A DNA stretch of 64,000 nt. Source: Tubulanus polymorphus (Eukaryota > Animalia > Nemertea). A model generated the notes under the pieces. That model was not told the DNA's origin. It worked only from the letters and a program-made list of their open reading frames with translations, and made no database searches. The position numbers were made by a program, and so were the translations under genes. The number at the start of each line of letters is the position of its first letter. Position 1 is the first letter of the stretch. This document shows positions 689 to 44,333 of this stretch, piece after piece. The stretch spans positions 10,912,001-10,976,000 of the forward strand of contig NC_134025.1 in assembly GCF_964204645.1 (NCBI RefSeq), given 5' to 3'.

Positions 689-3600
689 TTAGAAAGAATC
701 ATCACTGCAACTTGATGCTGCGTCCTTTTCAATTTGATTCAACCATTCGCAAGCAGCTTGCTTTTGTTGCGCCCAACTATAGATCTCTTCATTAAGCCTA
801 CTGTCAAAATCGACAGCGACGTTTTTAAAACTGCTGTCGGAGCAGCTACTGTAACTGCTGCTGTCCTCGGTGTAGAACGGTTCATGATCGATGCCTCTTA
901 ACGTTGAATCATCATCCGAACTATTCTCCGTATTGGACGAATTATCATTTGAAAGCGGAACCACGTCGGCTTGGTTTCGGTTGCTCAGACCCGGAGCCCG
1001 CTCAACAGAATCGCCCGCGCTATTGTCAAATGAAAAAGATTTTCGTAGCCAATTCATTATACGCCTGCCGACCGGTTTGTCATCAGCTTCAGTCTCACCT
1101 ACAATAGCGTTGGCAGAAGACGCAACGAGTGGCTGAAATACAAACATTGTTTACATTGAATACTGTATGCACATGTAAAATTACGGCATATCCTATCAAA
1201 CAAAGCAGGATCAAAATTACACTGCGGTACCATAGTTGCACAAAATACATTCCCAAATTATATTCTTTCATTATTTAAAAAAAATTATGGACAAGCTAAT
1301 CATAGCCTGGCGGAGGCTATAGAAATGAACTGATTACAAATTTCATTGCATTATAAACCACGTCTACACTAGCTAGCTGAACTCGGGTTCCGATGTACCC
1401 GGGTTTGACAAAAACCCGCGTACGCAGTGAGTAGCGTCTACACTTAACACAGTTTCCGTAGTAAGAATCCACATCTGTAGTTCATGTTCAAGGTCAATTG
1501 TGCTTCCGAACGCTGCATTGAATTCGGGTTTTGAGCGTAGTGGAGACGCATAACCTGGGTACAAAATGCTAGTGTAAACGGAGCTTTACAAAATGACCTG
1601 GCAAATTAGAAACAACAAGGTATTATTCTTTTTTATCAGACTTATCATCATTTTAATAATAAGAAAAAAGTAAAATAAAAGAAAAATCATTCTCTCACCT
1701 CTGGATTAATCAATTCACTATCGTCTAACTCCAAGGAATTGTCTTTTCTTAACTTTTTTGAATTGGATATGGCGGCAGTGTCAGACATTTTACGTTTATG
1801 TGACAACTTTTTTCCCGATTGAGGCACTGGTAACATCGTTGTTTGTTTTGAACTATTCTCCTTGAGATCCTGGAATATGATGTCGAATTAGTACACGCAT
1901 GAGTAATACAACAAAGAATAGCTACCCAGAATCATTTTGGTAGAGTAGACTACTCGTATTGTTGTCAAACCGCTCAAACCCAAATTTGTATGGAAAACCT
2001 TCTACAGTGGAACCTCGTTTTAATGACCTTGGATATAATGATTCATCGGTTATTACAAACCTAGAATTTCATCGCAAATACAACGATATCAATACTTTCA
2101 TGCTAAATATAATCGGATATAACAAACAGATTTTCTGGTCCCCTGAAGTTCGTCGCACCGAGGTTCCACTGTATTTTCTTGATTCTTAACTCGATGAAAT
2201 GAGTTTATTGTACATACCTGTATTTCTTTTTCAATGGCCTTGCTTTCATCGTCTTTACCCAAAATACTCAATGTACGTTTGTAATCGCGAAGTAACTTTG
2301 GTATGAACTGGTCACACGGCATGAAGTTTCCTTCATGCAGCAGTAACTTATAGGCCTGTGCAAAGTCTGACTCGGCATCAGTGTAATGTCTTACATGATC
2401 TGAAACAGAAAACCTTTTGATTGAACATGTACTGTACGCATCAGTTCAAATGTAATACCCTGCAGTTTTGCCTAGACTGATTTGCCTCTTAACGAATTAA
2501 TCATGTAAAAGCTTTGAAACTTTAATTGATAATGGCTATCTTGGTAATTTCTTGTTTCAAATACTGTTATGTAAAAAGCATTTTTCCATGATAATGCATC
2601 ACAGGTAGTACCTCCAGTTTTGTTTTCCAGTGCTCTTTTTCCTAAGTCATTTTTGATAGTGCCTCTCATGTAAAAGAACTTCATTCTTTGTTCGCCACCC
2701 ACCAGATTTTTGAAAAGGGAAGAGCTTTTGTTTAGAGTTCTCAGTGCTTCATCAGGATCTTCCAATTCAGCCAGGGCACAGGCTTTGTTCTTTAAAATTC
2801 GGCCATAAAGTAATGTTGATTTCATTCCAAGAGTTTCACAACACTGCAGGGCTCGATCGAAATACTTAATCGCTTCATCATATCTCTTTTTCATGCTCAC
2901 TTCCAATTTATGACCTTGCTCATCTGATTTACATTTTTCTTTTGCGTAGCAATCATGGTTGCCAAGCACAAGATAAGCACTACCTGTATTCATCATATAG
3001 TTAGGTGTATCAAAATGAAGGTCGCTTTTATCATTTTTAGCAGCGATTTCCTGCATTACAATGCACGATTTATCATAGTATTTAACAGCCTTTGCTGGGT
3101 CATCAATATTCAGATACAAATGTCCAAGCAGGTTTAAATCCCGTGCCTTCAATACATTCCATAATAGATATCTTGAGTGAATCTTCAACGCCTTTTTAAC
3201 TTCGACTATTCCCTCATCAAATCTGCCAATTCTGTCAAAAAATCTTCCCTGAACATAGAGATAAAGTGCCCTGCAAAGATCCGTTGATTTGCCTGAAGTG
3301 CTGATGTCTTTCTTTTCTAATTTCTTCAATGTCTTGTCAACTTTTTTCAACACCAACCGCACGACGTAAGGATCAAAAAGATGACCCTCGAAGTACTGCT
3401 CAGCATACCATAACAACATCATACACAAGGTTAGAGGCTTTGTAGTTGATGCAGCTTTTGCCAGATGAAAAAAATAGTCGGCCCTCCTTTCGGGCTCTAG
3501 GAACCAGTCCATGAGCATGTTTGCATAAGAATAATTACAGAATTCTTTTTTATCCCTTAAGTCAGGGATTGAAGGGGTGAACTTTTTAATGTTTTCCAGA

Positions 3601-6600
3601 TATTTCATCAGGTATTGTTTATCGTCGGCGAGGCGTTTGGTGACTTGAAGTGCTCTGCTACATGACAGCTTTCCAAGTTTCAACATCAATATTCTTCCAT
3701 AATCTATGAGGCGGAGATTGGAAACATTTAACAAATCATTTTGCTGATCAGTTAGCGATAATTGCCTCAAAGAAGTGGTCACCAATATATGTAAAGAAAA
3801 TGATTCGCCTTGGGCAGAATTAAAGGAATCAGAAGCCCGGCTGCCTCTCACTTCAAGCAGAGAGCGAGTATACAACTCGTCCAATTCCATTTTCATCAAT
3901 TGACCGTCATGACCTGTCACATGAATGGCCGCTTTATAATCGAATTGATTATTTTCGAATACGGACAACTGAATGAGAAGATCTTGCTTCGATTTATCCA
4001 AATTTTCTAAGATTGATACCATACTGGTCCTGTGATCATTGTGGATCAATCGCTCGATGAATTGATTGATCTCCATCGGTCCGCGGCTCGAGTCCTTCAG
4101 ATAGCTGCCGACGACACGAATCACGAGCGAATTGCGACCACACCTTTGCGCAATGGTTGAACATACTGTTGAATCCAATATTGCCTGAAATGTCAAAGAG
4201 AACGTGAATAGCAACTAGGGGTCCAGGGGCGCCACGTGCTCACTTGGTCTGAAATGCTAGAAATCTGATAATGACATCCCTGGTGAACATTTACAGAAAC
4301 CGATGAGCTTAAAACTCACCACTATCAGAAAATATTGTGAGCTACAACTTTGCAATTGCATGAGGTAACAAAATATGTTAAGATCCTTATATAAATGGAA
4401 GTACTAAGTCATTCCCCCATTCAACGCCTCCTAGTGAAAGTATGCAGAAGCCAATGACCTTAAGAATCATAGTGTCATGATCTACAACTTTGCTAGTGAT
4501 TATAAATTATGCATAGGTACCAATATGAATTGGAATATTTTAGGGAACATTTGATGAGAACGACATAAGGTATCATCAATAGTCAATCAGAAGTGGTTCA
4601 TTTGATTCCTCCAGTAGAGCAAATATACAAGAGGAGATCCAACCGGGTACACACAATTTTTTGACCCCCCCTCTGTACGCAAATCAGCCATTTTTTCATA
4701 TACATCTAGCAGTACAGTACGCAATTGCACTGACCCCTCCAACCTCCCCTAATGCGTACGTGATAAATGAATGACCCCTAAATAGAAACCCCTGTTGAGT
4801 ACCAATGGGATAGAGTAATACATACAGCACGCTGCTTCGTGTCCACCATTTTCTTCAGAAGATCACTACATTCATTCAGGGATAACGGTTCTAATTTGTG
4901 TACTGGTATTCTGTTTTCTATTCCGCAAGGCACGTTCTGCTGCTGCTGCTGCCAAGGATTCATGAGAGACGTCATTATTATCTTCACCTGAAATATGTAC
5001 TGGTACATCTACATATTCCTCAATATGATAAGAGATTTCTGTATATGATACCTTGCCTCTCATTTCTGCTGAACTTAAAAGTTGACCCGCCCGGCCATCT
5101 ATCTACTCTGTATATTACTTTTTTTTCAAATCATGATCAAGCTAACTCTAACAGACCCGGCAGTTAGAGAAAGATCTGATTACAAATTTGTAACGAACAT
5201 GATGGGCAGTTGTGATTTTGATTGAGTTGTGACCTTGTGATTTCTAACTTGAGTGATAGTTGACAAGATTTCCATGAATTGTACAGCTTCGCTATGGCTG
5301 CAGTTCACATCAATCAGCAATTCAGCGGAATCGAGTATCACAATTAAATCTGAAAAGACCATGATATAATGGGGACATGAAGGAGTTATGAATTGACTCG
5401 AAATAGAGGCCAAAATGAATTACGTAAACGCATTACATTGCATAAAAAACATTTCATAAATGGCTTGCGTTATGCGGAATCAGTGTAATAAAGGGGTCGT
5501 TTACTTGCCATTTTCCCAGTTCTGCAGGATTTGTTCTAAGTCAGAAATGTCTGTTTGCGAAGAAAATGTCCGGTCCATTTTAACGTATAAACGCAGCAAA
5601 AAATCCTTCACAGTTGTGATACCTCTAGAAGAACCGAAGAAGTTATGTTTCATCGAAAAACTCCCAAAGCATACATTAATCAGAGGATTGGAATATTAGT
5701 AAAACATTAGGCATGCACATCGATCCAGTACCGGTACTTCAAACCCAAAAATAATGATTCAACCAGCAATATTTTCATAAAAGCCAAAAGAAAAAGACTC
5801 AACCACAGTGATGAGGTTACTTACTAGAGATCCCTGAAATGCTTGAAAATCAGGCAATAATTGAGTAGTGCAGGCAAACCCCCTTAATCTGGATTGGTTA
5901 AATTTGGATAATATTTGCAGTCCATTTGTTCATTAATTCACAAGAAAATAACTTTTAATCTGGATTTCCCGTTTAAATGAATTTTCTTAGTCCCAAATGA
6001 TCCGAACTAAGTGGATTCTAGGCCTTCTGTAGGCTAGTAGCCTACATGTATTTCTGCTCCAAGAGATGAGGACAACCTGTTGACAGCTTACTTGTTGGGC
6101 CATTTGAGACTTGTTATTAAGGCCTCTTTCGGCCAAGATGAGACTCTACAAACAAAGCAACATGTACCTAATTATGATAATATGATTTACCTCAAATTGA
6201 CAAGACACTTGTCCACATGTCTTCTCATGCATATATTTTCAACTATAGTAGTTTTGCCAACACCAGCCATCCCATAAATACAAATACCTGTCAAAATTGA
6301 TATTAACTATGTTTGTAAAAAATCTATCAGTAATACTTCATTTAACCTTTAATGCCACTATATATGCATCACTAGCTAATATAAATCAACTCCCCACATA
6401 AAAACCTGAAAAAAACAAGAAAGCCCAAATCAGTTTCATCATTTTCAGGTAAATTCATAAATTCCTATTACAGTCAAACATCGTTAATACGATTGTGTTT
6501 AGCATGAAACCTGTTGCCTATACCAGAGGTTCCAGAGAGATAATACAAAAATCAAATCCAAAAATTTGATTGTTGCCCACAAAATTTGCATGCATCAATG

Positions 6601-7266
6601 AATTTCCACTGTAATTTCATTTTTGAAACGCATATCCTCTTGTAAAATAGGCTCATTACGATATCCAAATTATCATTTGAAGTTTACAAAGTATAATACA
6701 AAAATACATTCGGCATTCACTAATAACATAAATGAAAATGTTATATCATTGTATTACTTTTTTATATCGTAGCAAAGGAAAAGGACAAAAAAGGACCCTA
6801 AGAAAAGCGTGTAATACCATACTGTTGTTTGTCAATTTGTGGTCTTACCTGAAATATGAACCTGGTTGTTGAAAAGCAGTCTTTCGATTGCATCCATATC
6901 TTCGCGTCTACCGACAAAGTTTTCGTCCAGCACGGAGCCCTCTTCCAGTCTTTTCTTATGAAATGTTTCCAATTCATTTTCGTAAATTTCTAGCCGATCT
7001 GCCAATGACATTGATCGACCTTCTACAATCAAATGCATTTCGGAAAGATTCTTTTTTAAAAAATTCAACATTCCCTGCTTTCCATTTTGGAGGAGTATTT
7101 CGAAGACTTCCATCTTGGCCGCTCCGACGTCAAAATCTTGCGAGGACACAGTCGTTCGAATTTTCACCGGCAGTGAACACGAGATTTTATTCACTATACC
7201 CCTCAACTGATCCTTAGTCTTTACATTTGTTAGAAAGTCTGTTCTCAAAGAGTCAAATGGTTCCAT
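689..7266 (-). CDS. NLR/Apaf-1-like STAND protein, paralogue 1 (CARD-like N-terminus, NB-ARC, TPR, basic segment and acidic tail), ~1092 aa, 9 coding exons
   Basis: Exons on the minus strand: 7266-6849, 6287-6191, 5624-5509, 5349-5234, 4987-4826, 4184-2612, 2399-2218, 1869-1699, 1132-689. They total 3279 nt and join in frame with AG acceptors and GT donors (GC donor for intron 3). Motifs: pre-P-loop ENFVGR, Walker A GMAGVGKT, Walker B LIVILDSAE, KIIMTS, LEPLS..C.DLL, GLPL-position CGRNSLVI, MHD-position FSLHILV, and TPR-like helices (ARDLNLLGHLY..AVKYY; YDEAIKYFDRAL). Exon phases match paralogue 2. Confidence 0.88.
2005..2171. mobile_element. Tc1/mariner-type MITE in intron 7 of paralogue 1
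   Basis: TA|CAGTGGAACCTCG ... CGAGGTTCCACTG|TA: perfect 13-bp TIR with TA duplication. Confidence 0.8.
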
Positions 7267-7509
7267 CACGACACATACAAGGGATGCAGTTTCCCAGTGC
7301 CTTTTTGCTTGTTATTGATTAGCTACGCTGCAACTACACTGTCACTAGTCAGTAACCTGTCTGTGGTTTAGTTTCACGATCGGATATTTTCACAAACCAC
7401 TGTATATAAGGTGTTATAAGCCCATCCGATTATAAAAAGCTTACCACCAACGACTACAACTACGTGCGACACATGCTACAACAAAACGAAACATTGATTC
7501 TACATCGCG

Positions 7510-7519
7510 GGGAAATCCC
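7510..7519. promoter_or_regulatory. NF-kB (kB) site upstream of NLR-like paralogue 1
   Basis: GGGAAATCCC fits the GGGRNWYYCC consensus and lies 244 bp upstream of the ATG. An IRF-like AAAACGAAAC is at 7483-7492. Confidence 0.5.
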
Positions 7520-9414
7520 GATTTTTCCGGGTTGATGTGAGGATGGCTCCGTTATTTCAACATTTACTACACCAAGTTAGAATTCAATGAAACTTTATTC
7601 GGCAAGAAAACCCCACCGTGATTTTTTTTCAATCGAAGATCATGATCAGGAGGATAGCTGGCAACTTTATTCGGCAGGTAAACCCCACCGGTGATTTTTT
7701 GTCGGAGGATAGCAGGCGAATGATTTAGGGGGGTTCGAATATCGGCATTTGGCGAATCTAGGTGTCTTTGAGTCTGACGTGGTTCTTTTGACGAGGACCG
7801 AAGCCGGTCCGAAGTCCCCACGGGGATTTGGGGAGGAAATCTGGCAAATTAGGAGCGATTTTAAGCGTTTTCCCGCCATCTTGAGTGATTATGGAAAAAA
7901 CACGAGAGCCGTGAATAGATACAAATTACAAAAATTCCATGTTTGTTTTATCTGTTATGTATATCTTTACAAATAGTATCAAGCTGTTTACAAAACTATG
8001 TTGTAAAAAATGAAGAAACCTAGCCGAGAAAAGGAGGTTCGTTCGTTAATCTGACATTTCAGTATACGAAGATACAGTAGTAAAAGGTCAAATAAGATGA
8101 TGAATGGAAAATTGGGAAAATCGTTGAAATGAGACGAAATGAAGGACCAGGCAATGAAATAATCACGTTAAAAGAATCATTCATGTCGATAAAAATAAGT
8201 TCCCTCTCACGCGAAATGAGAAAGAAAGAGTGTACATGCGTGTCTTTTTTATCTCTAGACACATGCGTGTCTTTTTGATTTTTTAGACACTTCTGGAAAA
8301 GACGCCTGTTTGCCTAACTACGAAATCCGAACTTCGCCATTCCTGCACCCAACGCACGCACCCCTTAAGCGCAGGCTTGTAGTGCAAATCTGATCCGAGA
8401 CGAAACGTGACTAGCAAATAACAATTTGACAGAATAAATTCGCCTATAGTTTGCCTTTGCGCCTATACATTAGTTGTGACTGAGATGCAGTCTTTTATGT
8501 AAATTTTCTTTATTTCCAAAATATATACTTGATGTACATTATTCTATTAAACAACATTGTAGTAAAAATACGATCAATGTTCTGTTAAAATCGAAAGAAC
8601 ATACACATGCTTAAGATATAAGTCTCTTAACTGTTTTTTTTTCCAATTAGACAAACATTACACTGTTAAATTCGAATCTATGGTATAAAAATCATTTTTT
8701 TCTTATAACATATATATATTTTTTTTCATTCATCAACATACGTAAAAATATTTCGTAACTTTTGATTCACCTATCAATTTCATAAAAAAGATCGTAAGGC
8801 TAAAAGCTTGATACATGTTTATTGTTTCCCATTTTTTTCGGCTGAGTGTGTAAGTTAAATTACATTTTTGTTTTCAAAATCACGATCACGCTTACCATAA
8901 CAGACCCAGTAGTTATATAGAAATGAACTGATTACACATTTTATTGCAGTTAACAAAATGACCCGGGCGATTAGGAAAAATAAGGTATCGTTTTATTTCA
9001 GCCTAAAAAGGTAACTGGTAAAATATCTCCAATATTATTTTATAACCTCGTATAGTGATGCACCCTGATTACTTCAAGGCTTGGATTGTTGTACTGGAAG
9101 TGTGGAATCCCAATAATGAGTTGTATCCTATGACAGAGAATGAAAAATGTTGACATTTCCCTCAAACCATTCTCCAGATACGAACAAAAACTGATGAAAC
9201 AAATATAGCCGCTTGCTGTGTAAATATTAGCTGATCCAAGTCTGATATGTTTAACTCAAATTTTCGTAACGCCCGATATGTCATTTCAATTAGAAATCCT
9301 AGCTCTATTAATTTGTCTATCTATTTCTGATTCACGATAATCTTGTTTAATTAGTTGACCATCGTATCTCTTCGACAAGTTGTTTTGTATGCGCGATATT
9401 CGTAACAGGTATCT

Positions 9415-12400
9415 TTAATCATGAGCCGTTTTGAAAGAATCGTCACTACTACAGCTTAATTCAGTATCCGTTTTGCTTTCGCTCAGCCATTCTTGTGCAG
9501 CCTTCTTATGTTCTGTCCAACTTCGAATCTCGGCGCCAGTTCGCTCGTCCAAATCGACATCGACATTTCCGAAATGGCTACCAGAACTGCTGCTGTCTTC
9601 GGAGAAGTCTGGTTCATCACCGATACATCGTAAGCCCGAATCATTGGATGAATTGTAGCTCGAAGCTGAAACGCTGCTTGCATACGTTTGCTCATTTGAA
9701 ATTCTGGCATCATCATCATCAATATCATTATCAATATCGGATGAAAATGATTTCCTCCTCCAGTTTGAAATACGTCTCAATGGCGTTTCATTTTCTTCTG
9801 CAGTCTCAATCTCATTATCCACGGTAGAAGCCGTTACTAATGGCTGAAACATAGAACATTTCAAGTGAAAGCCAGCCGCATAAATTATAACTACAGCACT
9901 TAGCGACAGTATAATGCCGAACACTGTGCGATAACTGTGATTTCAGTAATGTTATTTATTCACTTCAAAACTAAATCTCACCTCCGGATTTTCTAATTCA
10001 CTATCTTGCAACTCTAATGACACTTGCTTCTGCCTCTTAAGCAATCTTTTTTGACGACTTGTTGCAGTATCTATCGGCAGCTTACGTTTTTGCGATGATT
10101 TTGCTTTGCTTGCTTTCATTTCTTTGGCAAGGATCTTTGACATATGTTTATTCGCTTTCTCTGCACCTATGTCTATGAGTTCCTGTGAAAGTAGTTACAA
10201 AGCTTAGACGTCGTTGCATTTGCTTGAGTAAGTTAATGTTGAATTTTAAGCATAAATTACCATTTATCAAATGAAAATAAAAACAAAAAAGAAAAACATC
10301 GCTAGAATTAGAAGTTTATTCTCTGGTTGGCTTACCCGCAAATTGTCGACGATCGTATTCGCTTCATCATATTTTCCCAGCTTTAGAAGTGTCATCTCGT
10401 AATCAGATTGTAAATTACGGATGAAATGATCGCGTGGTTTAAAGTGTCCTTCTTGCATCAGCAATGTGTATGCCTCAGCGAAGTCATGTTCCGCATCGGT
10501 GTAAAATCTTTCAAAGTCTAGAACAGAAATGTTCTTATTCAAATACTCAGTCAGCATACTGCAGAGCCCTCTCAATTCAGATTCAATTCCAATAATCAAC
10601 AATGTTCTCGTGTACATGTACATCCAAAGAATGACTAAGATTCCAGGGTTAATCCCTGCTTAATCGATTAAAGTTTTTGGCCCTAAACATAGCTCGAATA
10701 ATCAATTATGAATCAAGTTCTCAATACCAGGGCATTCAGTGTAGGGATCTGAAAGAATGATAGTTCTTCTCATGAGATGTTGACACTTAAATTATAATAC
10801 ACGTGCTGTTCGAAAGGAGAGCTATTCCTATGTACATCTCGACCCTCTAATTACAACAGACCCACTTTAATTAATTTTAAGTCCAAGCTTAAAACATAGC
10901 CCTTATTGAGTGTCGATATAGCAATTATTTTACATAAATCCTCTATGAAATCGGTCCATGGAAATGGGACTCATTGCAAATACCTTGTTGTCTTTTTTCT
11001 TGTTTAGCTGTATCTCCAAGGCTTTTCCTGATTGACCCTCTCAGATAGTAAGCTTGCATTCTATCTTCACTACCACTCAAATTGTTGAAAAGTGGAAGGC
11101 ATTTGTGAATATCTTCCAATGCTTCCTCATATTTCTCTAATTCAGCCAGCACACAAGCTTTGTGCCTCAATATTCGACCATATACTGATGTCAATTTCAT
11201 GCCCAACTTTTCGCACTCCTGCAAGGCTTCATCGAAAAGCATAATAGCTTTATCGTAATTAGCCTTCATGCTTGATTCTAATTCCAATTTCTCTCTGGCA
11301 TCGCAGTTTCGTAGATTACAATAGTCATCCTTTCCATTCTCAAAATATGCTGAACCAGTATTAAGAAGATAAGTTGGAGCATCAAAATGAAGGCTAGACT
11401 CATTCATATCATTTGGCATACGAACCAATGCATAAGCTTCCTCGAAACAAGAAATCGCCTTTCTCGGATTGTCATTTTTCAAGAAAAGGTTTCCAAGAAG
11501 ATTCAAATCTCGCGCAATCAGTATATCACAATGCGGATACTTTCTATGAATATCTATTGCTTTGTTGACATTATCAATCCCAATGCCGAGCTCACCAATT
11601 TTGTTGAGATAAGATCCCTTAACAAAGAAATAAAGTGCTCTGCAAAGTTCTGTGGATTTTCCTGATGTACTTTCTAAAATCTTCAATCTTTCATCTACCT
11701 TCTCTAAAACCAATAAAACAATATCCGCATCAAAAAGATAACCCTGAAAATACTGCTCGGCATACCATAATGATATCGTACAGCTGGTTAGAGGCTTTTT
11801 AGTCCATGCAGCTTTTGCCAGATGAAAAAAATATTCTGCTCTCTTCTCAGGCTCAAGAAACCAGTTCATTAACATGTTTGCACGAACATGATTATGGAAC
11901 ACTATTGGCAAGCCGAAGTCAGGCAGAGAATGCTTCATTTTTCTGATGTTTTCTAGATATTTCATGAAGTACTGTTTTTCATCACCAAGTTGCTTGGATA
12001 CTACAAGCAGAGAAGCGCTGCTGCTACATGCCTCGATGAACAACCTGCTTCCATACTTCAAAAGCCGCTGATTTGAATCGCTCAACAATTTCCTCTGCCG
12101 ATCCGTTTGCGAAATCTGCTCCAAAGAAGTGGTAACCAATATGTGCAAGGAAAACGATTCATTATGGGTTGACTTTACAGAATCTGAAACTCGGCCGGCT
12201 TTCACCTCAAGCAAAGACCGCACATACAAATTATCCAATTCACCGAACAAAGATTCATGGTCTCGACCAGTCACGTATGCAGCTGCGTTCACACCAAATT
12301 GATTATTCTCGAATGTGGACAACTGAATGAGAAGATCCAGCATCGATGGATCCAAATGCTCCAGTATTGTTATGAGGTAGGTCTTGCAGCCTTCTTTGAT

Positions 12401-15400
12401 TTTTGTTCCGTTGACGAACTGATGGATTTCAGCTGGACTGATGTTCGTGCTGTTCAGGTAACTTCCAACGGCACGCACGGCAAGAGCGTTGTAGTTGCAT
12501 CGCTGTGCAATGGCTGAACATATTTGTGCATCCAATGTTTTCTGGAATTTAATCAGAGAATAAATAACGTTTGAATAATTGGGTCCAGAAGAACCTGCTT
12601 AAAATGATATGCTATGCAGTTTGTTTATTTGTACAAGCTCCCTAAAATGCCCAATGCAGGTTTTCATTTGAAATCATTTGAAAAATCAAGATATTAAACA
12701 CATGGACTTCTAACTACTGGTGAAGCTGCAGTTTGATGGATTACATATGGATACAAACTGGTGTCTTAAGGGGTGAGATTATACCTACGTACATAAGTAG
12801 GAAGGGCATTGACCTGATGGATACTAACTTTAAATTTACAATTTTATAAAATCAGAAAATACTTAGATATCATTCTATTCAAAGACTTCTCGGGATGCCT
12901 TTCCTGCATCCCTTCCATAGAATTGGCTCATTACAGGCCTGGTGGTTTGACTTACAACATGCTTTGGGGTCATTCGTTTCAGAAGGTCAGTACAATCCAC
13001 CAGTGATAACGGTTTTAAGTGGAAGGTCGGTATGCTATCTTCCATACCATACACCATGATATCATCATTCTGCTTCCAAGGATCCATAAGCGATGTCATA
13101 ATTATTTTGACCTTAAAAATACGAACACAGAAATAAGATCTGAGAATTCGATCCAGTGAAAATCATTATCTAATTCAATGGGTTACTTCATTTTCGTGTC
13201 ATCATAAAATGGAATCGATGCATGTAGTTAATATTTATGAAAATTTCAGGCGAATGTCCAGTAATGAACAGATGAAACTACGCTCATAGAATTATTTCTA
13301 CATAAAAAGAATAAGACTGCAAGCATACCTTGCCATTTTCTATAGCCGTGATATCCGACAACATCTGAATGAATACTTTAGCTTCCTGTTGACTGGAATG
13401 GGTGTCGATCAGAAACTCGACCGAGTCAAGAAATATTGTCAAATCTAAAATTGAACAGTACATACATCCATGAATTCCCGACTGATACTTGTGTACTGTA
13501 TATTACGGAAAAATGCTGTAAACTCGACTCATGTCGAGTCGCTTTACTTCAAGAACTCAAATCTTAGGACCATTGCAATAAAATATCAATTAAATGATAA
13601 AATTGCCTTGTCAAAACTAGTCCCACTTGATCTTAGTCAACTGGGCCGATATAAAACAGAAAATTCCAGTAAAATTCGTGTTATTCACGGTTAGCGGTAA
13701 AAATCCCCTTGGTAAAAATCCCCCCTCGGTAAATATCCCCAATTCTTCAAAGTAGGTTAAAATCCCCCTCCTTCTGAATGTAGTGTAAGTAGATACAATC
13801 TTAAGGTCAATCAATTCATAATATTGATACATATATCCAATTTATTATTGTGGAACATCATAAGGATATCATGAGTATACAAACTTTAGTATATACTATT
13901 TGAATTAAACATACTACAAATTAACAGTTCATTAATACTAAATTAGTACTTAAAGTTATCAAAAAGCTTAATGAAAAGGTTCATCGCACATTTCAAATAT
14001 ATTACACTAGCTTGAATCTAAAATATCTAGAATTAAAAGTTCATTATCGCTTATAACTCATGGCATTGCACTGCCCAAATATACCACAAGTCAACAAGAG
14101 ACTGTTCAAAAATATTCCAGTTCGAATTTTAAGATATTATAAGTAAAAAGTTCATTATTCTTATTAATTCTAATAATTTATTTTATTCTTAAAGTTTACT
14201 TAAAGAATTTATCCCAACGATAGATTTCAGTGTGCAGTTCAAACAGATTTCAGTCTCATTGCAAATGAACAAAATTGGAGAAACGTTTTGCTTTGAAATG
14301 TTCTTGAAAATCACCGAGTGGGGATTTTTACCTACTTTGAATATTTGGGGATTTTTACCTAGGGGATTTTTACCCAGGGGATATTTATTAACCTAGGGCA
14401 TTTTTACCCAGGGGAGTTTTACCTACAACCGTTATTCACAGCACAGTTGAATATCACTTTTGAGTGGACAATGCCTTCTTAAGTATTTAGAAAACTGCCA
14501 CTTCTTTTCCAAAAGAATTGGAACAATTTAACGAAGCCTTTAAAGCCAAGAGAGTTGGATATAAAATAGCTATACCATCATCCCAATACTGTAGGATACT
14601 TTTCAAATCTGCAGCGCTAGTTTGAGAAGACCACCTCCAGCCCATTGTTAAATAAAGGCGCATCAGGAAGTCCTTCGTCGTCTTTATGCCTCTACAAAAA
14701 CAGAACAGATCATCATTTTCTTTAAACAAACATTTGTTATCAGTAACACAAATGTTTGACCCCAATATCCTAGCATCCATGTAAATGTACCTTGGAGGGA
14801 GGTAAAAAAGTTGCAACAAAATCTTCTATTGTAATTTAAATGAATAATGATAATAATCTTACATAGACGCAAGAATGAGGTATTTTTACAATTAAGAATA
14901 AATATTTAGCAATAGATTAATGAGGGTTCACAATACAAGCCTTGGGGGCTGTGGCCACTGGACCCACGGAGAAATGTGCATAGCGAGTAGAACAATGAAA
15001 AAAATCTACTAAAATGATTAAAATAGAATGCAATTAAATGATTTTATTGAAGCCTTAACTATTGGAATAACCTATAAAATTCCATTTCCAAATAAATCAG
15101 ATAAACCATGGACGTATAAACTAGATTACAAGTATCTAGTTTTATGTCCATGGATAAACCAAATCCACAAAATGCCAGGATATGAAGTTTGCTTTATTGC
15201 AGACAAAGTTTATCCTGTGAGTAAGCAGGAAGTTCTGAGATCTTTCAATTGAAGCAAGCAGGATAATAACCTCATACTAATAAAATGCATATCTACGTGT
15301 CTTCTTGCGCATATGTTTTCCACGATGGTTGTTTTACCGACACCAGCCATCCCATGAATACATATACCTGTGACCGAAACAGAATCATTTCGATAAAACA

Positions 15401-15997
15401 CGTTTAATGTACCAAGAATTTTCGAAGCCAAAATAAGAACCCTCTCAGACCCAGTCTAATGGAGACATTATTACTCAAATCCATTATTTCATAATGCGTA
15501 TTAATCTTTTTGGTCCCAAATGATGAATCGCATCAAAAGTGTGCATCAAAATTATTACTGATATTATTACCGGAAATGTGCTCTACTTGGTTGAAAAGAA
15601 GTTTTTCGATTGCGTCCATATCTTCGCGTCTGCCGACAAAGTTTTCATCCAGTACGGATCCCTCTTCTAACCTCTTTTTGTGAAGCTTTTCTAACTCATT
15701 CTCGTACAATCTCATCCGTTCTGCCAATGACATCGATTGACCATCCACGACCAAATGCAAATTGAGGCCATCTGCTAGATTTTTCAGCAAGGTCACCACC
15801 CCTGGTATTCCATTTTGTTCGAGGAAACATTCGAATACTCGCGTCTTCGCCTCGTTTACGTTGGAATCTTGCGAGGCGACTAGGCTTCGAATTTCATCTG
15901 GTAACCAGCACGAAATCTTGTGGACGATATTCAGCAACATCTCCTTCGTTTTGATGCTCATAAGAAAATCATTTTTCAAAGAATCGAATGGATTCAT
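9415..15997 (-). CDS. NLR/Apaf-1-like STAND protein, paralogue 2 (same architecture), ~1093 aa, 9 coding exons
   Basis: Exons on the minus strand: 15997-15571, 15367-15271, 14691-14576, 13444-13329, 13111-12956, 12541-10984, 10517-10336, 10182-9982, 9843-9415. They total 3282 nt in frame, all introns GT-AG. Motifs: ENFVGR, GMAGVGKT, LTIFLDSVE, KIIMTS, CNYNALAV, FSLHILV and TPR-like repeats. Exons 2, 3, 4 and 7 have the same lengths as in paralogue 1 (97, 116, 116, 182 nt). Confidence 0.88.
13689..14430. mobile_element. Mutator-like non-autonomous element in intron 3 of paralogue 2
   Basis: 9-bp TSD gttattcac at 13680-13688 and 14431-14439. Ends are GGTT...AACC, with inverted subterminal arrays of GGTAAAAATCCCC / GGGGATTTTTACC around an AT-rich core. 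Confidence 0.75.
15107..15152. mobile_element. Ultra-short CATGGA-ended element with 7-bp TSD
   Basis: gataaac|CATGGACGTATAAA...TTTTATGTCCATG|gataaac. Confidence 0.7.
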
Positions 15998-20308: not shown

Positions 20309-21090
20309 TATAGTAGGCCTGTGTTATGTTACCAAAAGTGAGTTTTTTAGATTAAAAATGTGTCGAATGTTTTGTATTGATGCAAGTCCTTGGGTAAAGC
20401 CCGTAGTAGTCATATAATCTGAATACCAGTTGTTGTTATGGTTCCCTTACAACCGTTGTTTGAGGAACAACGGCTAGTAGGTACTAGACTAGTAGTCGTA
20501 GAATAAACCATTGTCTTTATGTCATCTGTTTTTATATCCATTGTAGCCTACACTGTATTGAAGGATTGCCGAAAAGTCTTTAATTCTCTTATGTAAAATA
20601 GAGAAAAGATCAGCCATTTTTTTAATTTCTAACAATATGTTGCTTAGTTACCTAATCGTCGGTGGTCCTAAGCTTTTTTGTGTTTTGGGAAAATATCCGA
20701 TCGTGAAACTAAACCACAGACAGGTAGACTATATGTTTCTCTGATTCAAATTATTAAAGAAGACTCTAGCAATCCCTCAATACAGTGTCAAAGTTGATTT
20801 AAAAAAAACAACGGTTTATTCAGACCGCACAGTTTTCACTGGTCGTCTAAGACCAATTTGAGGTAGCATTGTGCAAAAGAAAAAGCGAAATATTAAAGAA
20901 AAATCGATTCCAGAACAAAATAATTGACCTCAAACATGCCTGACAGCAGACAGGTTGTTGAAGAAGTTTATAAAATGAGGCTAGCCTCAGTTGATAAAAA
21001 TTGACTAAATTTGAAAATTTTCCTCTTACTAAACTTTTTGTATGGTCTATTCAATGGTCATGTATATTTCTACAGCAGGTATTGGTCAAT

Positions 21091-24000
21091 ATGGCTGGAA
21101 TACACGTTTTCAATGTTGAATTTGGTTTCAATGCAACTCCTTTAACTGTTGCACTAGAAGAGGGAAACGTAATTCAAGCGGAGAGACTGATAAAGCAATG
21201 CACCACACCGTCGTACCTGGACGAAGGTAGGTTGCGATGTGTAGTAAATGAAAACTTTCGGTTTAGTTAAGGTCACAGAAAGGCAATTCCAAGCAACTTA
21301 TAGTTTTTAGTCCTAACCTGGTTCCACATGAAAAATGAAACAAAAAGTCATGGCTCTTGCATAACCTCAAAAAATGATTGCAGACAAAATAAATAGACTT
21401 GGTCAATTCTAGTAATTCATCTGGTATTCAGACCACTTAGGATTTGAACTTGCTAAACTCTTGTAGTTCTTCCTTTCTCTATGGTCAAGCTATAGCACTT
21501 AGTTGTCAGCATGGTTTATAGTGAATAGTGGATGCCATGAAGTCTGTCCCTTATTTTTGCCCCGATGATGATGTCAATGTAAAGACTGATTAAGCGTGGT
21601 AATAACCCTCCAAAATATTTCTTCGAAGAAAAATCGTTAGCGACTATCATGATTGCAGGATTCTTATTTTCAATGAAGTAACCATCAGGCTTGGCATAAA
21701 ATTTCAGGTTGTTACCAAAGAATCCCATTGTTCATAGTTTTATGTGGTGAAAATGAGATGTTCGAAGCGAAGACTCGCGACTTCTACTTGGCCAAGTTAT
21801 TACTACAGTATGGAGCCAATCCAAATTATCGAATTCCAGAGGTAACATATGCGTCCTGCCAATTCTAGGATTTCATCAATTATGGCATGCCATTTGCCTA
21901 GGATCTATACAGTCAACTCCTTGGTTCTCCACCTTTTGTTTATCTGCCACTCTCGGCTACTGCCAAGTAAATGCTTAGTCCCGAATTGATTAATGCTTTC
22001 AGCTTCCAATTTGGAACAAATATTATAGTAATAGTTCGATTAAACACCATCAAAAATGTTTAAAACTTGTAGTGAAGTACAAATTTATTTATCAGCAACA
22101 ATTGGTATTACACTGAAACTGTTGTTTGTAAATCATCTCCAGATACTATCTATACATCACCCATGTAAACATCTATGTTAGATAGACTACAGGGACGACT
22201 ATTATCAAACCGGTATCAGAGTACAATTGATGTTCTCACTAACTCTTCACAACAGTTCTAAAAGCGTGTAGGTCAATGGGTCTTTGAAACCCGATTGTCA
22301 CCTGTGGTTGCAGAGAATTGTGTCAAAACATGAGGCTAGAAGTTGCAATTCTTGTAAAGCGTCTCAGAGGGTCATTCTCGACTGTGCACTCGCGTCAACG
22401 AAAAGCTATTTGAAAAGAAATGCCTTTCTTATTTTAGACCGATTCGTCAGAATATGTCAGCAGAGGAAAAGCACCATTGGAACTGATGGTCGACTTTTAT
22501 ATAGAATTAATCACTCGCGAGGAAACAAAAAATTACAAGTATGTCCCCATCACATGAATCTGACGTTCAATAAGCTTTGACAGTTTTGGAATGTATTTAA
22601 GGCTTAGGCCTGTATAAATCCATAAAAACAAAAACAGTACACAATTTATCTTGGATTATTCTTTTAGATGAATTGATTTTATGTTTCAGACCTTTTCAGA
22701 AAGTTGTCGGTCTAGAAAATAGCCAATTGTCAAAGACAAGGGATATTCTTCAAGAAATCCTTGAGATGATATCTGTGCTGTTAGGTAAGTAATTAAGCTA
22801 AGCGAGTTTGTTTTTTAATGGTCCTGTACTTAGATAGTCTAATCGGCGATTCCTATTTTTGGTTAGAATTTTGAGTACGTGTTTGAAAATGAGCTATTTA
22901 TTGCAGCTAATTACATTTTCTTCATAAGATAAAAACCCACTATTTAAAAATTAAAAGAAGTCTAAAATCGAGAATTTATTTATTGAAACAATCTAAAATA
23001 TAAGAACACAACGTTTTGATCTCACACTAGAGATCATCGTCAGGTGTGTAAAATAGTGGGTTAAAATAGTGGGTTTTTATCTTATCATCTGGTCACCACG
23101 TTTGAGTGTGGTTATCGTACCATTACATTATCTTCAATTCTATTTAGCGTTTGGTGCAGACGTCAACGTTACTAACGACGATCAAGAAACACCTCTATTA
23201 CGAATTCTTCAACACAGTTGCTCCGATTTGGAGCTTGTGTCGCTGCTGTGCGAGAATGGGGCGAATCCGAATGCGATCGGTACTATGTATAGCTATTCAT
23301 CTGTATTTTGTCTGTGTACGTGCCCTAGTCACGTGTCGTTCAAAGACCTTGCTCGGTCTATGTCTAGTCACACTTGTCACCGCGATCAGCAGTTCGCTAT
23401 TCTTAAGACACACGATGTGGATGTAAGTACGAGTTGACTAATAAACTGTTGATTTATTTGGAACCCTTGTGTACTGCACAAGTGCACCTTTTTCATACGG
23501 TGTTTCTATTTCCTAGTTAGAGATAAAGACCAAGGCCGGTCAAACTGTAATATTCCGTGCGCTGCAAGAAGGTCATTTTACAGTGAGTCGGCTTTTGCTT
23601 CAAAATGGTGCTAGCGTTGGTGAACCCAATATCATGCTTGGACTGAGAAATCAACGAGAGCGGCACAGGTAATTGTCACTTCGTCAAGAGCTACCAAACA
23701 GTCTTGATTGTCAGGGACCATCCCTGAAATTTGTTAGCTGTCCCCTTGGTTATCAATATGGAATTGGAAAGATGTGAAAGTCTTGTATTTGTGTCCGTAG
23801 TATGGTAGATTTCATGGCTTGTTTTTAGCGTCTTCCATAGCATCTTGATTCATAAATGTGCTGCTCCTTCGGCCATTCCTAGAATATCTATGCATCCAAT
23901 GCATAAATACTGCGGTTTGTATGTTAACCGGTAGTATTGCTATACATGTATTTGTAAAAAGGACACAATGATTATCGAGAAAATTCAAAGGTAATTTCAC

Positions 24001-24748
24001 TAAAACCACACCCCTTGTTTTTTGATATTCGTAGTATTTCAATGGTAGACTTAACGCCATTCTTTGGATATGTTATATCTTCTGAAGTACAGCAAGAACT
24101 GCTGAACTTTCCAACGACAAATTCACTTCAACAGATGGGTATTGCTTCACTGGTGGATTCAGGTAAGTAAACCAAAAAATTATTTTCTTTATGCTATCAC
24201 ATCCATTCTAGAGTTAGAATAGAATTATTTCCAATGTTTGGACTCTGGATTTCCTCAAAACTGGGTTGGAACTGGGTCTGATTTAATTCTGAATTGAGCT
24301 CATTCGTACTTACTATATCTTTTATTCAGGGCTATTTCCCTTGGGAGTACTGTTTAACGATCTCAAATCAATCATCCTTGGAGGATTTCCGGAATATAAC
24401 GAATTGCTGTTGGTCGGCCGCGAACGTCTATTTCCCTTACTGTTCGGATACACATCGGCTGGCCTGAAGCAAATCATTGCGCGCAAGATTTTCCAGTTAA
24501 TCACGAAAACGGATGGACTCACGATAACCCAATTAACCGAACGAGAAGAACCAGTTGAAAGGAGTTGGCTATTGGAGTGGCTCGGCGAGCTTCATCTACC
24601 CTTGGATATTCTAATGAATTTTCGACTCGAATGTTTTCGATACCGCATGTTGTACGGGTTGAGAGAGCAGATCCTCAAAGATATTTGGACCGATACACTG
24701 CCTTTTAGTTCAGAATTTTTCGATGATTCAGACTTGGAATATTGGTGA
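21091..24748 (+). CDS. Ankyrin-repeat protein with degenerate C-terminal SOCS-box-like motif (ASB-like), ~479-513 aa
   Basis: Exons: 21091-21226, 21708-21841, 22438-22538, 22690-22784, 23148-23422, 23517-23668, an optional frame-preserving 23829-23930, 24035-24162, 24330-24748. All are GT-AG and in frame. Ankyrin motifs: TPLTVAL, LLLQYGANPN, FGADVN..ETPL, LLCENGANPN, GQTVIFRALQEGHFTVSRLLLQNGA. The C-terminus has AGLKQIIARKIFQLI...LGELHLPLDIL. Confidence 0.78.
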
Positions 24749-33112: not shown

Positions 33113-33745
33113 TCAAGCCGATCGTTGCGACGTGTTGCGCTTGATCGACGAGTTGTAAACGGAAACGTCGACCGGCGCGCCGGGCGGCGAATTAGCGTAC
33201 AAGGTGACCGCCTGATAGCGCTGATTCGGACCGCCGCTGCTTGTCGTGCGACAGCACACCAGACGACAACAGTACGCCGACTCGATGATCGACGCGACGA
33301 ACTCAACCATCGCAAACACGAACATCAAACTGTAGAACGGCACGCCGCCGTTCGCTTCGTCCTCGCGGTACAACCCGAGTCCGCCGACGAGCATGACGAT
33401 CACGACGACGACCGACGAGATGATCGATATCACCATGCAGCCGATCGTCAGGCAACGGATTTTGCCGTCGCGACAACGTACGCCCAGTCCGCCGGCGATT
33501 ACGAATATGATTCCGCCCCAGATGCCCGGTGCGCCGCCGGCCACGGCGACGTGCGAATGCAACACGAGCAAGACGATGTTCGCGATTAAACACACGATGC
33601 CCGATATGATTTGCGCCACGCCGAGAATGAGATGCGCTTTCTGGTACGATTTTGGCAGGCAGAAAAAATTACAGGTCGGTAACTCTGGCTGATGCATATT
33701 TCTCTTTCGTTCCGGGTCGGATGATCGGTTGCTATCAATAATCAT
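33113..33745 (-). CDS. MS4A/CD20-like four-transmembrane protein, ~210 aa, single coding exon
   Basis: Four hydrophobic segments with family-typical motifs LGVAQIISG, GAPGIWGGIIFVIAGGLG and E..AS..ES.YCC..CC. First ATG at 33745. A pyrimidine-rich splice acceptor (cttctttttatag, minus strand) at ~33818 implies a 5' UTR intron. The ORF is GC-rich compared with its flanks. Confidence 0.8.
   Translation of the reverse strand: MIIDSNRSSDPERKRNMHQPELPTCNFFCLPKSYQKAHLILGVAQIISGIVCLIANIVLLVLHSHVAVAGGAPGIWGGIIFVIAGGLGVRCRDGKIRCLTIGCMVISIISSVVVVIVMLVGGLGLYREDEANGGVPFYSLMFVFAMVEFVASIIESAYCCRLVCCRTTSSGGPNQRYQAVTLYANSPPGAPVDVSVYNSSIKRNTSQRSA

Positions 33746-44091: not shown

Positions 44092-44333
<242 letters not shown>

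What the first reader, a model, noticed from the sequence alone, without database searches (positions are those of the whole stretch)
689..15997. Tandem pair of invertebrate NLR/Apaf-1-like receptors: death-fold-like N-terminus, NB-ARC and TPR, extended by a basic exon and an acidic tail
Seen in sequence: two intact 9-exon genes with identical intron phases and almost identical length, but clearly diverged proteins, so both appear to be maintained. Established: effector-STAND-superstructure repeat is the layout of Apaf-1/NLR immune and cell-death switches, and TPR-type sensors are common in fungi and bacteria and reported for some invertebrate Apaf-1 homologues. Inference: this is a lineage-specific innate immune or cell-death receptor pair. 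The extra ~200-aa module after the TPRs is not part of the canonical layouts I know.
Basis: partly seen in the sequence, partly recalled or inferred. Interest (0 to 1): 0.8.

Follow-up and report, generated by a model that had tools for sequence, protein, structure and literature searches.

The report
Ribbon-worm Apaf-1 cousins with altered switch
Two neighbouring, spliced ribbon-worm genes encode members of an old, little-studied animal family of Apaf-1-like proteins (death-fold head, nucleotide switch, TPR repeats) that likely act as sensors inside the cell; both lack an arginine that all the non-ribbon-worm relatives compared keep in the switch, and their extra tail is predicted to be a floppy address-and-brake segment rather than a new domain.

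Summary
Two head-to-tail minus-strand genes have 9 exons each, identical intron phases, 1092 and 1093 aa and 54% identity. They match RefSeq Tubulanus polymorphus proteins exactly, and 15 of 16 introns are seen spliced in one run.

Both belong to a pre-bilaterian DED–NB-ARC–TPR family (Nematostella, echinoderms, amphioxus, Lineus). This kind of architecture is in print, and I found no functional study. They are neither NACHT-LRR NLRs nor Apaf-1 orthologues.

The nemertean branch is altered. The sensor-1 Arg is absent in 5 of 5 nemertean rows and present in 17 of 17 others. The predicted death fold lacks the FL patch and RxDL and carries a β-hairpin insert.

The 'extra module' is mostly disordered, and relatives have such tails too. 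Here it carries a bipartite NLS-like motif in both copies and a terminal helix with weak support for folding back. Many deuterostome relatives end in CaaX instead.

Most likely these are autoinhibited STAND sensors that oligomerise on TPR ligand binding and signal through a non-standard death-fold partner. An obligate receptor 'pair' is unsupported. Verdict: new variant of a known kind, interest 0.4.

The parts
689..7266 (-). Gene A CDS (LOC141907812, 1092 aa). Exons 7266-6849, 6287-6191, 5624-5509 (GC donor), 5349-5234, 4987-4826, 4184-2612, 2399-2218, 1869-1699, 1132-689
9415..15997 (-). Gene B CDS (LOC141898365, 1093 aa). Exons 15997-15571, 15367-15271, 14691-14576, 13444-13329, 13111-12956, 12541-10984, 10517-10336, 10182-9982, 9843-9415
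15677..15997 (-). B residues 1-107: predicted DED-like death fold with a beta-hairpin insert (residues 81-90); FL patch replaced by His26/Lys27; no RxDL
6955..7266 (-). A residues 1-104: the equivalent DED-like domain (59% identical to B's over residues 1-110; not folded separately)
15330..15353 (-). B Walker A (intact, GxxGxGKT)
6250..6273 (-). A Walker A (intact, identical to B's)
13088..13090 (-). B Leu260 at the sensor-1 Arg position (TSL in place of TSR)
4964..4966 (-). A Leu257 at the sensor-1 Arg position
12485..12487 (-). B codon 323, the Pro position of the GxP motif: Ala in the window, Pro in runs X1 and X2 (apparent allele)
10336..12541 (-). B exons 6-7: HD1 end, winged helix with MHD-type His437, arm and TPR solenoid
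2218..4184 (-). A exons 6-7: HD1 end, winged helix, arm and TPR solenoid
10033..10089 (-). B bipartite NLS-like motif (residues 916-934) in the basic exon 8
1741..1797 (-). A bipartite NLS-like motif (residues 913-931), at the same aligned position
9415..9843 (-). B exon 9: acidic, Ser-rich disordered tail with conserved islands and a predicted terminal helix (residues 1049-1079, 9460-9552) with weak support for docking on the folded body
689..1132 (-). A exon 9: acidic, Ser-rich tail, 47% identical to B's, with the same islands

Best explanation
The two genes are long-diverged tandem copies from the nemertean branch of an old animal DED-NB-ARC-TPR family, and each likely works alone as an autoinhibited STAND sensor: predicted to rest as a closed nucleotide-bound monomer, it would open and oligomerise when a protein or peptide binds the TPR groove, and would then cluster its remodelled death-fold head to recruit a partner likely other than a standard caspase-8/FADD chain. 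Shown: gene structure, splicing, family membership and motif states. Predicted: the folds. Inferred from PH0952, MalT and Apaf-1: ADP-bound rest, clamping by arm and TPR, ligand-induced oligomer. Inferred from the missing sensor-1 Arg: activation does not depend on reading the ATP gamma-phosphate, so the open form may stay ADP-bound. The tail likely does two jobs. It addresses the protein (NLS-like here, CaaX in many deuterostome relatives), and its terminal helix may fold back as an added brake. The ligand and the output are unknown; stress or infection surveillance leading to cell death or immune signalling is the most likely role.
For: NB-ARC is above Pfam's cut-off in both proteins. The full model has mean pLDDT 76.9. 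Its best Foldseek match is the STAND-TPR protein PH0952 (E 1.9e-13), then Apaf-1. VIA gives Apaf-1 Z 27.4 (rmsd 4.7, 398 aligned) and PH0952 Z 24.8 (rmsd 8.0, 608 aligned). For the N-terminal model, FADD DED (Z 9.3, rmsd 2.2, 85 aligned), the DED-assembly chain 8ybx_A (Z 9.2) and AIM2 PYD (Z 9.1) tie, and nearly all of the top 50 rows are death folds. The nemertean N-terminal profile aligns to the DED-bearing homologues at probability 88.9, E 2.4e-6. The first ESM Atlas hit is a 75-member DED/AAA_22/TPR cluster at 0.97. Walker A, the Walker B Asp and the MHD His are kept in 22 of 22 rows. dN is far below dS in every region. Mechanism by analogy comes from PMC6468293 passages. NLS-like motifs sit at the same aligned place in both copies; shuffled tails give one 5.6% and 1.9% of the time. 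Tail helix against the folded body scored 0.59, best of 3 controls 0.01, rated weak support. At or under 0.60 only 5 of 78 solved complexes and all 4 passing mismatches scored; the runs share at least 35% of contacts and partner pLDDT is at least 47.
Against: No experiment on any family member was found. The sensor-1 Arg, which binds the dATP gamma-phosphate in active Apaf-1 (PMC4691890), is missing, so the proteins may not activate at all. The DED lacks the FL patch and RxDL, although RxDL/I is found in only 2 of 11 non-nemertean rows. Each N-terminus scored alone against the homologue profile is no better than shuffles (4.1 and 5.5 bits against a shuffled top of 8.6). Foldseek gave no N-terminal match at E<=0.001, and the model was guided by an alignment rich in DEDs. 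The TPR region is not hypervariable: 51% identity against 63% for the NBD, and no coding variant was listed in either TPR region in the runs laid. That fits a fixed self-ligand as well as a pathogen ligand.
Confidence: 0.5

Rival explanations
1. Decoys or dampeners: the proteins still bind nucleotide and ligand but cannot build an active platform, and they sequester death-fold adaptors or active family members, much as cFLIP or inhibitory NLRs do.
For: The sensor-1 Arg is lost in 5 of 5 nemertean rows, the DED contact motifs are lost, and PDB holds an Apaf-1 R265S mutant structure (title only; its loss of activity is recalled). RefSeq lists X2 isoforms of both genes that lack the DED and P-loop.
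Against: All nemertean members found share the change, so no intact nemertean partner to be inhibited was found. PMC5050015 says Arg265 is unlikely to trigger the conformational change directly. MalT can oligomerise with ADP plus inducer (PMC10427625).
Confidence: 0.2
2. Non-immune nuclear regulator: a STAND switch repurposed as a nuclear scaffold or transcription or chromatin regulator, with the acidic tail as activation or chaperone surface.
For: Both tails carry a bipartite NLS-like motif and are acidic and Ser-rich. Only two loci were found in this species, with little coding polymorphism. The best STAND sequence match of the family profile in PDB is the bacterial regulator AfsR.
Against: A death-fold head is kept under constraint (59% identity). 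Independent tandem expansions (4 Lineus loci) are typical of immune genes. No DNA-binding domain was found. Many relatives end in CaaX, which points to membranes.
Confidence: 0.18
3. Obligate receptor pair: A and B hetero-oligomerise as sensor and executor, like paired plant NLRs.
For: The genes are adjacent, both are spliced in the same run, and both have been kept since an old duplication.
Against: They lie head-to-tail, 2.1 kb from B's stop to A's start. Architecture and motif states are the same, with no integrated domain. The duplication post-dates the split from the sampled Lineus genes (100/100; B plus Lineus1 rejected at p-AU 0.014). Adjacent NBD loci are commonly explained by tandem duplication (PMC4083563).
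Confidence: 0.12

Closest known systems
Invertebrate CED-4/Apaf-1 homologues with DED/DD heads and TPR tails (Zmasek et al. 2007, PMC2246300; coral NBD repertoire as reviewed in PMC4083563; placozoan NB-ARC-TPR, PMC6321704)
   Same: Death-fold head, NB-ARC and TPR repeats. Found in Nematostella, amphioxus and echinoderms, and often tandem.
   Different: Those papers list domain combinations only. I could not see Fig. 2 of PMC2246300, so whether its subfamily C is this family is untested. The nemertean members lack the sensor-1 Arg and the FL patch, carry a hairpin insert in the DED, and have 200-320 aa tails.
PH0952 / MalT STAND-TPR proteins (PDB 6MFV; PMC6468293)
   Same: NBD-HD-WHD-arm-TPR layout; best whole-protein Foldseek match.
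   Different: These are prokaryotic and have no death fold or long disordered tail; identity is 14-15%.
Apaf-1 (PDB 3SFZ, 1Z6T)
   Same: NB-ARC and arm fold (Z 27), death-fold head, Walker A/B and MHD His.
   Different: Apaf-1 has a CARD and WD40 sensor against a DED-like head and TPR here. Its sensor-I Arg265 and MHD Asp have no counterpart here. Identity is 15%.
FADD / caspase-8 DED
   Same: Predicted six-helix death fold (Z 9.2-9.3). A sea-urchin family member's head hits caspase-8 DED by sequence (E 6.6e-7).
   Different: The FL patch maps to His/Asn-Lys, RxDL is replaced by a beta-hairpin insert, and Pfam DED is not detected.

Membership tests
STAND NTPase, AP-ATPase/NB-ARC class | NB-ARC domain followed by HD1 and winged helix | tested here: met
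   Pfam NB-ARC 28.1 and 32.1 bits, cut-off 23.5; Z 27.4 to Apaf-1 and 25.2 to NRC1 NB-ARC
STAND NTPase, AP-ATPase/NB-ARC class | Walker A GxxGxGKT, Walker B acidic residue, MHD-type His | tested here: met
STAND NTPase, AP-ATPase/NB-ARC class | Sensor-1 hhhT(S/T)R arginine | tested here: not met
   Leu in both copies, Gln or Val in Lineus; Arg in 17 of 17 other rows. Equivalence to Apaf-1 Arg265 is inferred from motif position after the strand 253-259, not from a displayed alignment
STAND NTPase, AP-ATPase/NB-ARC class | GxP motif in HD1 | tested here: inconclusive
   Pro is replaced by Ser in A and by Ala in B of the window, but runs X1 and X2 read Pro in B
STAND NTPase, AP-ATPase/NB-ARC class | Nucleotide- and ligand-dependent oligomerisation | not testable with these tools
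   needs biochemistry
Animal DED-NB-ARC-TPR family | Clade membership on the NOD core | tested here: met
   16-row animal clade at 98/98, apart from 44 mostly bacterial or unnamed and 2 plant rows; Apaf-1 and CED-4 sequences were not in the tree
Animal DED-NB-ARC-TPR family | TPR sensor after the arm | tested here: met
   TPR_12 49 and 53.8 bits, cut-off 30.1
Death effector domain | Six-helix death fold | tested here: met
   predicted model pLDDT 82; Z 9.3 to FADD DED, tied with a PYD; profile match to family DEDs
Death effector domain | FL hydrophobic patch on helix 2 and RxDL charge triad | tested here: not met
   caspase-8 K-F-L maps through P0051 to V-H-K in B and V-N-K in A (two-step alignment at low identity); no RxDL
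Bona fide animal NLR (NACHT + LRR, as defined in PMC3879445) | NACHT domain and LRR sensor | tested here: not met
   NACHT 12.4 bits against a cut-off of 26.7, no LRR family listed
Apaf-1 orthologues | CARD-NB-ARC-WD40 layout | tested here: not met
   TPR in place of WD40; head allied to DED by family
Paired NLRs (sensor/executor) | Head-to-head linkage and asymmetry between the two (integrated domain or one dead switch); definition recalled | tested here: not met
   head-to-tail with the same motif states
Paired NLRs (sensor/executor) | Physical or genetic dependence of one on the other | not tested

The most novel reading that the evidence does not exclude
Animals other than vertebrates, flies and nematodes keep a family of Apaf-1 cousins whose tail is a swappable address label: a prenylation signal for membranes in echinoderms and amphioxus, a nuclear import signal in ribbon worms. 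The ribbon-worm branch has become a nuclear death-fold receptor that activates without reading ATP, is braked by its own tail helix, and signals through a new partner via a hairpin-bearing DED.
Probability: 0.2. Interest if true: 0.7.

Novelty: new variant of a known kind. Interest (0 to 1): 0.4.

Why it matters
Invertebrate death-fold/NB-ARC/TPR proteins have been listed for years with no ligand, partner or structure that I could find. This pair gives clean, expressed gene models and three testable leads. One is a lineage-wide loss of the sensor-1 Arg with the rest of the pocket kept: a natural test of whether an animal STAND needs ATP sensing to assemble. Another is a DED kept under selection without its usual contact motifs. 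The third is a tail that seems to set location (NLS-like here, CaaX in 5 of 7 named deuterostome representatives). It is not a new architecture, and nothing yet ties it to immunity beyond analogy.

Tried and rejected
No whole genome is held, so copy number was not counted. Protein searches named only these two Tubulanus loci; tblastn of 14 family proteins found no third copy in the window.

No RNA holder was listed on record, and run X5 laid nothing; neither is evidence.

Pfam, phmmer against PDB, ESM Atlas on residues 1-115, and Foldseek all missed the N-terminal domain.

'New folded module in the tail' was rejected: pLDDT is under 50 over 913-1050 and Pfam finds nothing significant.

A phospho-FFAT (VAP-binding) reading of B's last residues was considered. 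A crude pattern, written after I saw the motif, hits B at 1087 and A at a different place (1038), with 3-4% chance each; A's frame ends before the equivalent core. PMC7705450 finds such motifs in 2,079 of 20,373 human proteins. It is left as a weak lead.

'Nemerteans lost the GxP proline' was weakened by the Pro allele of B.

The word-index homologue search with the family profile returned mostly bacterial STAND-TPR proteins and no new named animal members.

No Apaf-1 or CED-4 sequence was in hand, so the tree does not place the family against them. The tree used 15 family rows and the 45 best of 80 non-redundant others; 13 near-duplicate or partial ids were excluded.

Searches for a paper on ADP-bound RPP1 and on R265S gave nothing that I read, so those points are recalled. 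Literature searches for nemertean or lophotrochozoan members found no study of this family; subscription papers are not covered.
Full report
Observation. Reading the minus strand and splicing by script gives two head-to-tail genes: A at 7266-689 (1092 aa) and B at 15997-9415 (1093 aa). Each has 9 exons, with phases 1,2,1,0,0,1,0,0 and no internal stop; A intron 3 is GC-AG. B is letter for letter RefSeq XP_074640321 and A is XP_074653658, both labelled Tubulanus polymorphus, a ribbon worm. Contigs of run X2 skip 8 of 8 B introns and 7 of 8 A introns at the predicted places; A intron 1 is not in the truncated list. Run X1 reads through the introns. This is one study and may be the data behind the annotation, so it is not independent of RefSeq. 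The proteins are 54% identical, with dN 0.36 and dS 1.6, and DNA similarity between the genes is almost confined to exons. The duplication is old and both copies are under purifying selection.

Anatomy. Pfam gives NB-ARC above its cut-off and TPR_12 in both; NACHT scores 12.4 against 26.7, and no LRR or WD40 is listed. The AlphaFold model of B (34-row alignment, mean pLDDT 76.9) shows a helical head, NBD, HD1, winged helix, arm and a TPR solenoid running to residue 913. Residues 913-1050 are disordered, followed by one helix at 1049-1079. Foldseek ranks the archaeal STAND-TPR PH0952 first (E 1.9e-13), then Apaf-1. VIA gives Apaf-1 Z 27.4 (rmsd 4.7, 398 aligned) and PH0952 Z 24.8 (rmsd 8.0, 608 aligned). 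The head, folded alone (pLDDT 82), matches death folds: FADD DED Z 9.3 (rmsd 2.2, 85 aligned), the DED-assembly chain 8ybx_A 9.2 and AIM2 PYD 9.1, tied. Against this, Foldseek found nothing at E<=0.001, single sequences score no better than shuffles against the homologue profile, and the model was guided by DED-rich rows. Profile-to-profile comparison does link the nemertean heads to the family DEDs (probability 88.9, E 2.4e-6).

Family. An HMMER search with A's exon 6 found relatives that cover the winged helix, arm and TPR together. The 10 of them that I looked up are from Lineus, Branchiostoma, Asterias, Patiria, Antedon, Acanthaster, Lytechinus and Nematostella. Several carry a Pfam DED above its cut-off (P0008, P0010, P0021, P0022, P0051, P0081). 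The ESM Atlas first hit is a 75-member, mostly cnidarian DED/AAA_22/TPR cluster. On a 60-row NOD tree the animal members form one branch (98/98), the 4 nemertean rows another (97/93), and A with B a pair (100/100). Holding B with Lineus1 is rejected (p-AU 0.014). Lineus has at least 4 loci of its own. The architecture therefore predates bilaterians, and the duplication is local. Apaf-1 and CED-4 were not in the tree.

What is different here. Of the 22 rows of the alignment examined (the 12 fragment rows were not), all keep Walker A, the Walker B Asp and the MHD-type His. The sensor-1 Arg is present in 17 of 17 non-nemertean rows and 0 of 5 nemertean rows (Leu, Leu, Gln, Gln, Val), most simply one loss followed by drift. 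In Apaf-1 this Arg binds the dATP gamma-phosphate in the active state (PMC4691890 passage), though another structure paper doubts that it triggers the change (PMC5050015 passages). MalT oligomerises with ADP plus inducer (PMC10427625 passages), and the plant NLR RPP1 is recalled to lack this Arg and stay ADP-bound. The GxP proline is absent in the window's copies, but B reads Pro in runs X1 and X2, so that change is not fixed. In the head, the caspase-8 K-F-L patch maps through a sea-urchin member to V-H-K and V-N-K. RxDL is absent, but it is also found in only 2 of 11 non-nemertean rows. A 9-12 residue insert, a beta-hairpin in the model, is shared by the 6 nemertean rows and P0126, with a shorter one in amphioxus P0017/P0160. 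An earlier unchecked note on an oyster gene (e1-10138290) reports a similar remodelled DED; I did not test it.

The tail. All 15 rows examined continue past the last TPR by 36-611 residues, mostly charged and Ser/Thr-rich; the longest, in Nematostella, holds ZU5 and Death domains. The tail is therefore a family trait, not a new domain. In A and B it is 44-47% identical, in islands. A bipartite NLS-like motif lies at the same aligned place in both (chance 5.6% and 1.9% in shuffled tails). Seven of the 11 non-nemertean rows end in Cys-x-x-x, against 0 of 4 nemertean rows and 3 of 224 background proteins; motif definitions are recalled and prenylation is untested. Folding residues 1-913 with 1040-1085 scored 0.59 against a best control of 0.01, rated weak support. 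At or under 0.60 only 5 of 78 solved complexes and all 4 passing mismatches scored; runs share at least 35% of contacts, partner pLDDT is at least 47, and no interface was given. One conserved island is not rigid: runs X1 and X2 carry a 6-base in-frame deletion at 9753 in B.

Mechanism. By analogy with PH0952 and MalT (PMC6468293 passages), each protein most likely rests closed, clamped by arm and TPR and perhaps by its tail helix. It opens when a ligand fills the TPR groove, oligomerises, and presents clustered death-fold heads to a partner (0.5). The missing Arg suggests assembly without gamma-phosphate sensing, and the remodelled DED suggests a partner other than a standard caspase-8 chain. 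The rivals are a decoy or dampener (0.2), a non-immune nuclear regulator (0.18) and an obligate A-B pair (0.12). The pair reading has only adjacency for it: the genes are head-to-tail, with the same motif states and no integrated domain. No ligand, partner or phenotype is known.

Comparison with print. PMC2246300 (passages, part 1 of 2 of Results, supplement search) reports Apaf-1 homologues with DED heads in Nematostella and TPR in place of WD40. Its Fig. 2 was not visible, so overlap with this family is untested. PMC4083563 and PMC6321704 (passages) list such combinations in coral and placozoans and explain linked loci by tandem duplication or note clusters. PMC3879445 (passages) restricts 'NLR' to NACHT-LRR, which these are not. 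Four searches found no study of this family's function or of nemertean members; subscription journals are not covered.

Verdict. They work like STAND-TPR sensors, belong to a known but unstudied animal family, and are a distinct variant of it. Novelty: new variant of a known kind; interest 0.4.

Noticed in passing
proteins P0008, P0010, P0017, P0024, P0035, P0051, P0081: Many relatives end in a CaaX-like motif, often after a basic NLS-like patch (5 of 7 named deuterostome representatives; background 3 of 224). This suggests prenylated, membrane-tethered Apaf-1 cousins.
   Followed up: partly
window 12487: Apparent allele Ala/Pro at the GxP proline of gene B: runs X1 and X2 read the family's usual Pro.
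   Followed up: partly
window 9753: A 6-base in-frame deletion in runs X1 and X2, inside the conserved Trp/Arg island of B's tail.
   Followed up: partly
window 5350-5508: GC-AG intron in gene A, where the matching intron of B is GT-AG; spliced in run X2.
   Followed up: yes
P0001, P0003: RefSeq X2 isoforms of both genes lack the DED and P-loop. B's begins in another frame of exon 2, so these may be decay substrates rather than decoy proteins.
   Followed up: partly
window 20998-24748 (+): Exon-like ORFs of an ankyrin-repeat gene next to gene B (Pfam Ank_4 at 23057-23434).
   Followed up: partly
window 33113-33781 (-): Long GC-rich ORF for a CD20/MS4A-like membrane protein (Pfam 26.6 bits, cut-off 27.9).
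   Followed up: partly
window 13679-14440: Element of about 760 bases with long terminal inverted repeats inside B intron 3, high-copy in the DNA run; MITE-like.
   Followed up: no
window 7345-7453: Very high-copy short repeat just upstream of gene A's start (depth far above the flanks in all four runs).
   Followed up: no
window about 44100-44330: Long (AT)n microsatellite that produces spurious YI-repeat ORFs.
   Followed up: no
P0041 / P0161 (Nematostella): A family member extended by ZU5 and a C-terminal Death domain in place of the low-complexity tail.
   Followed up: no
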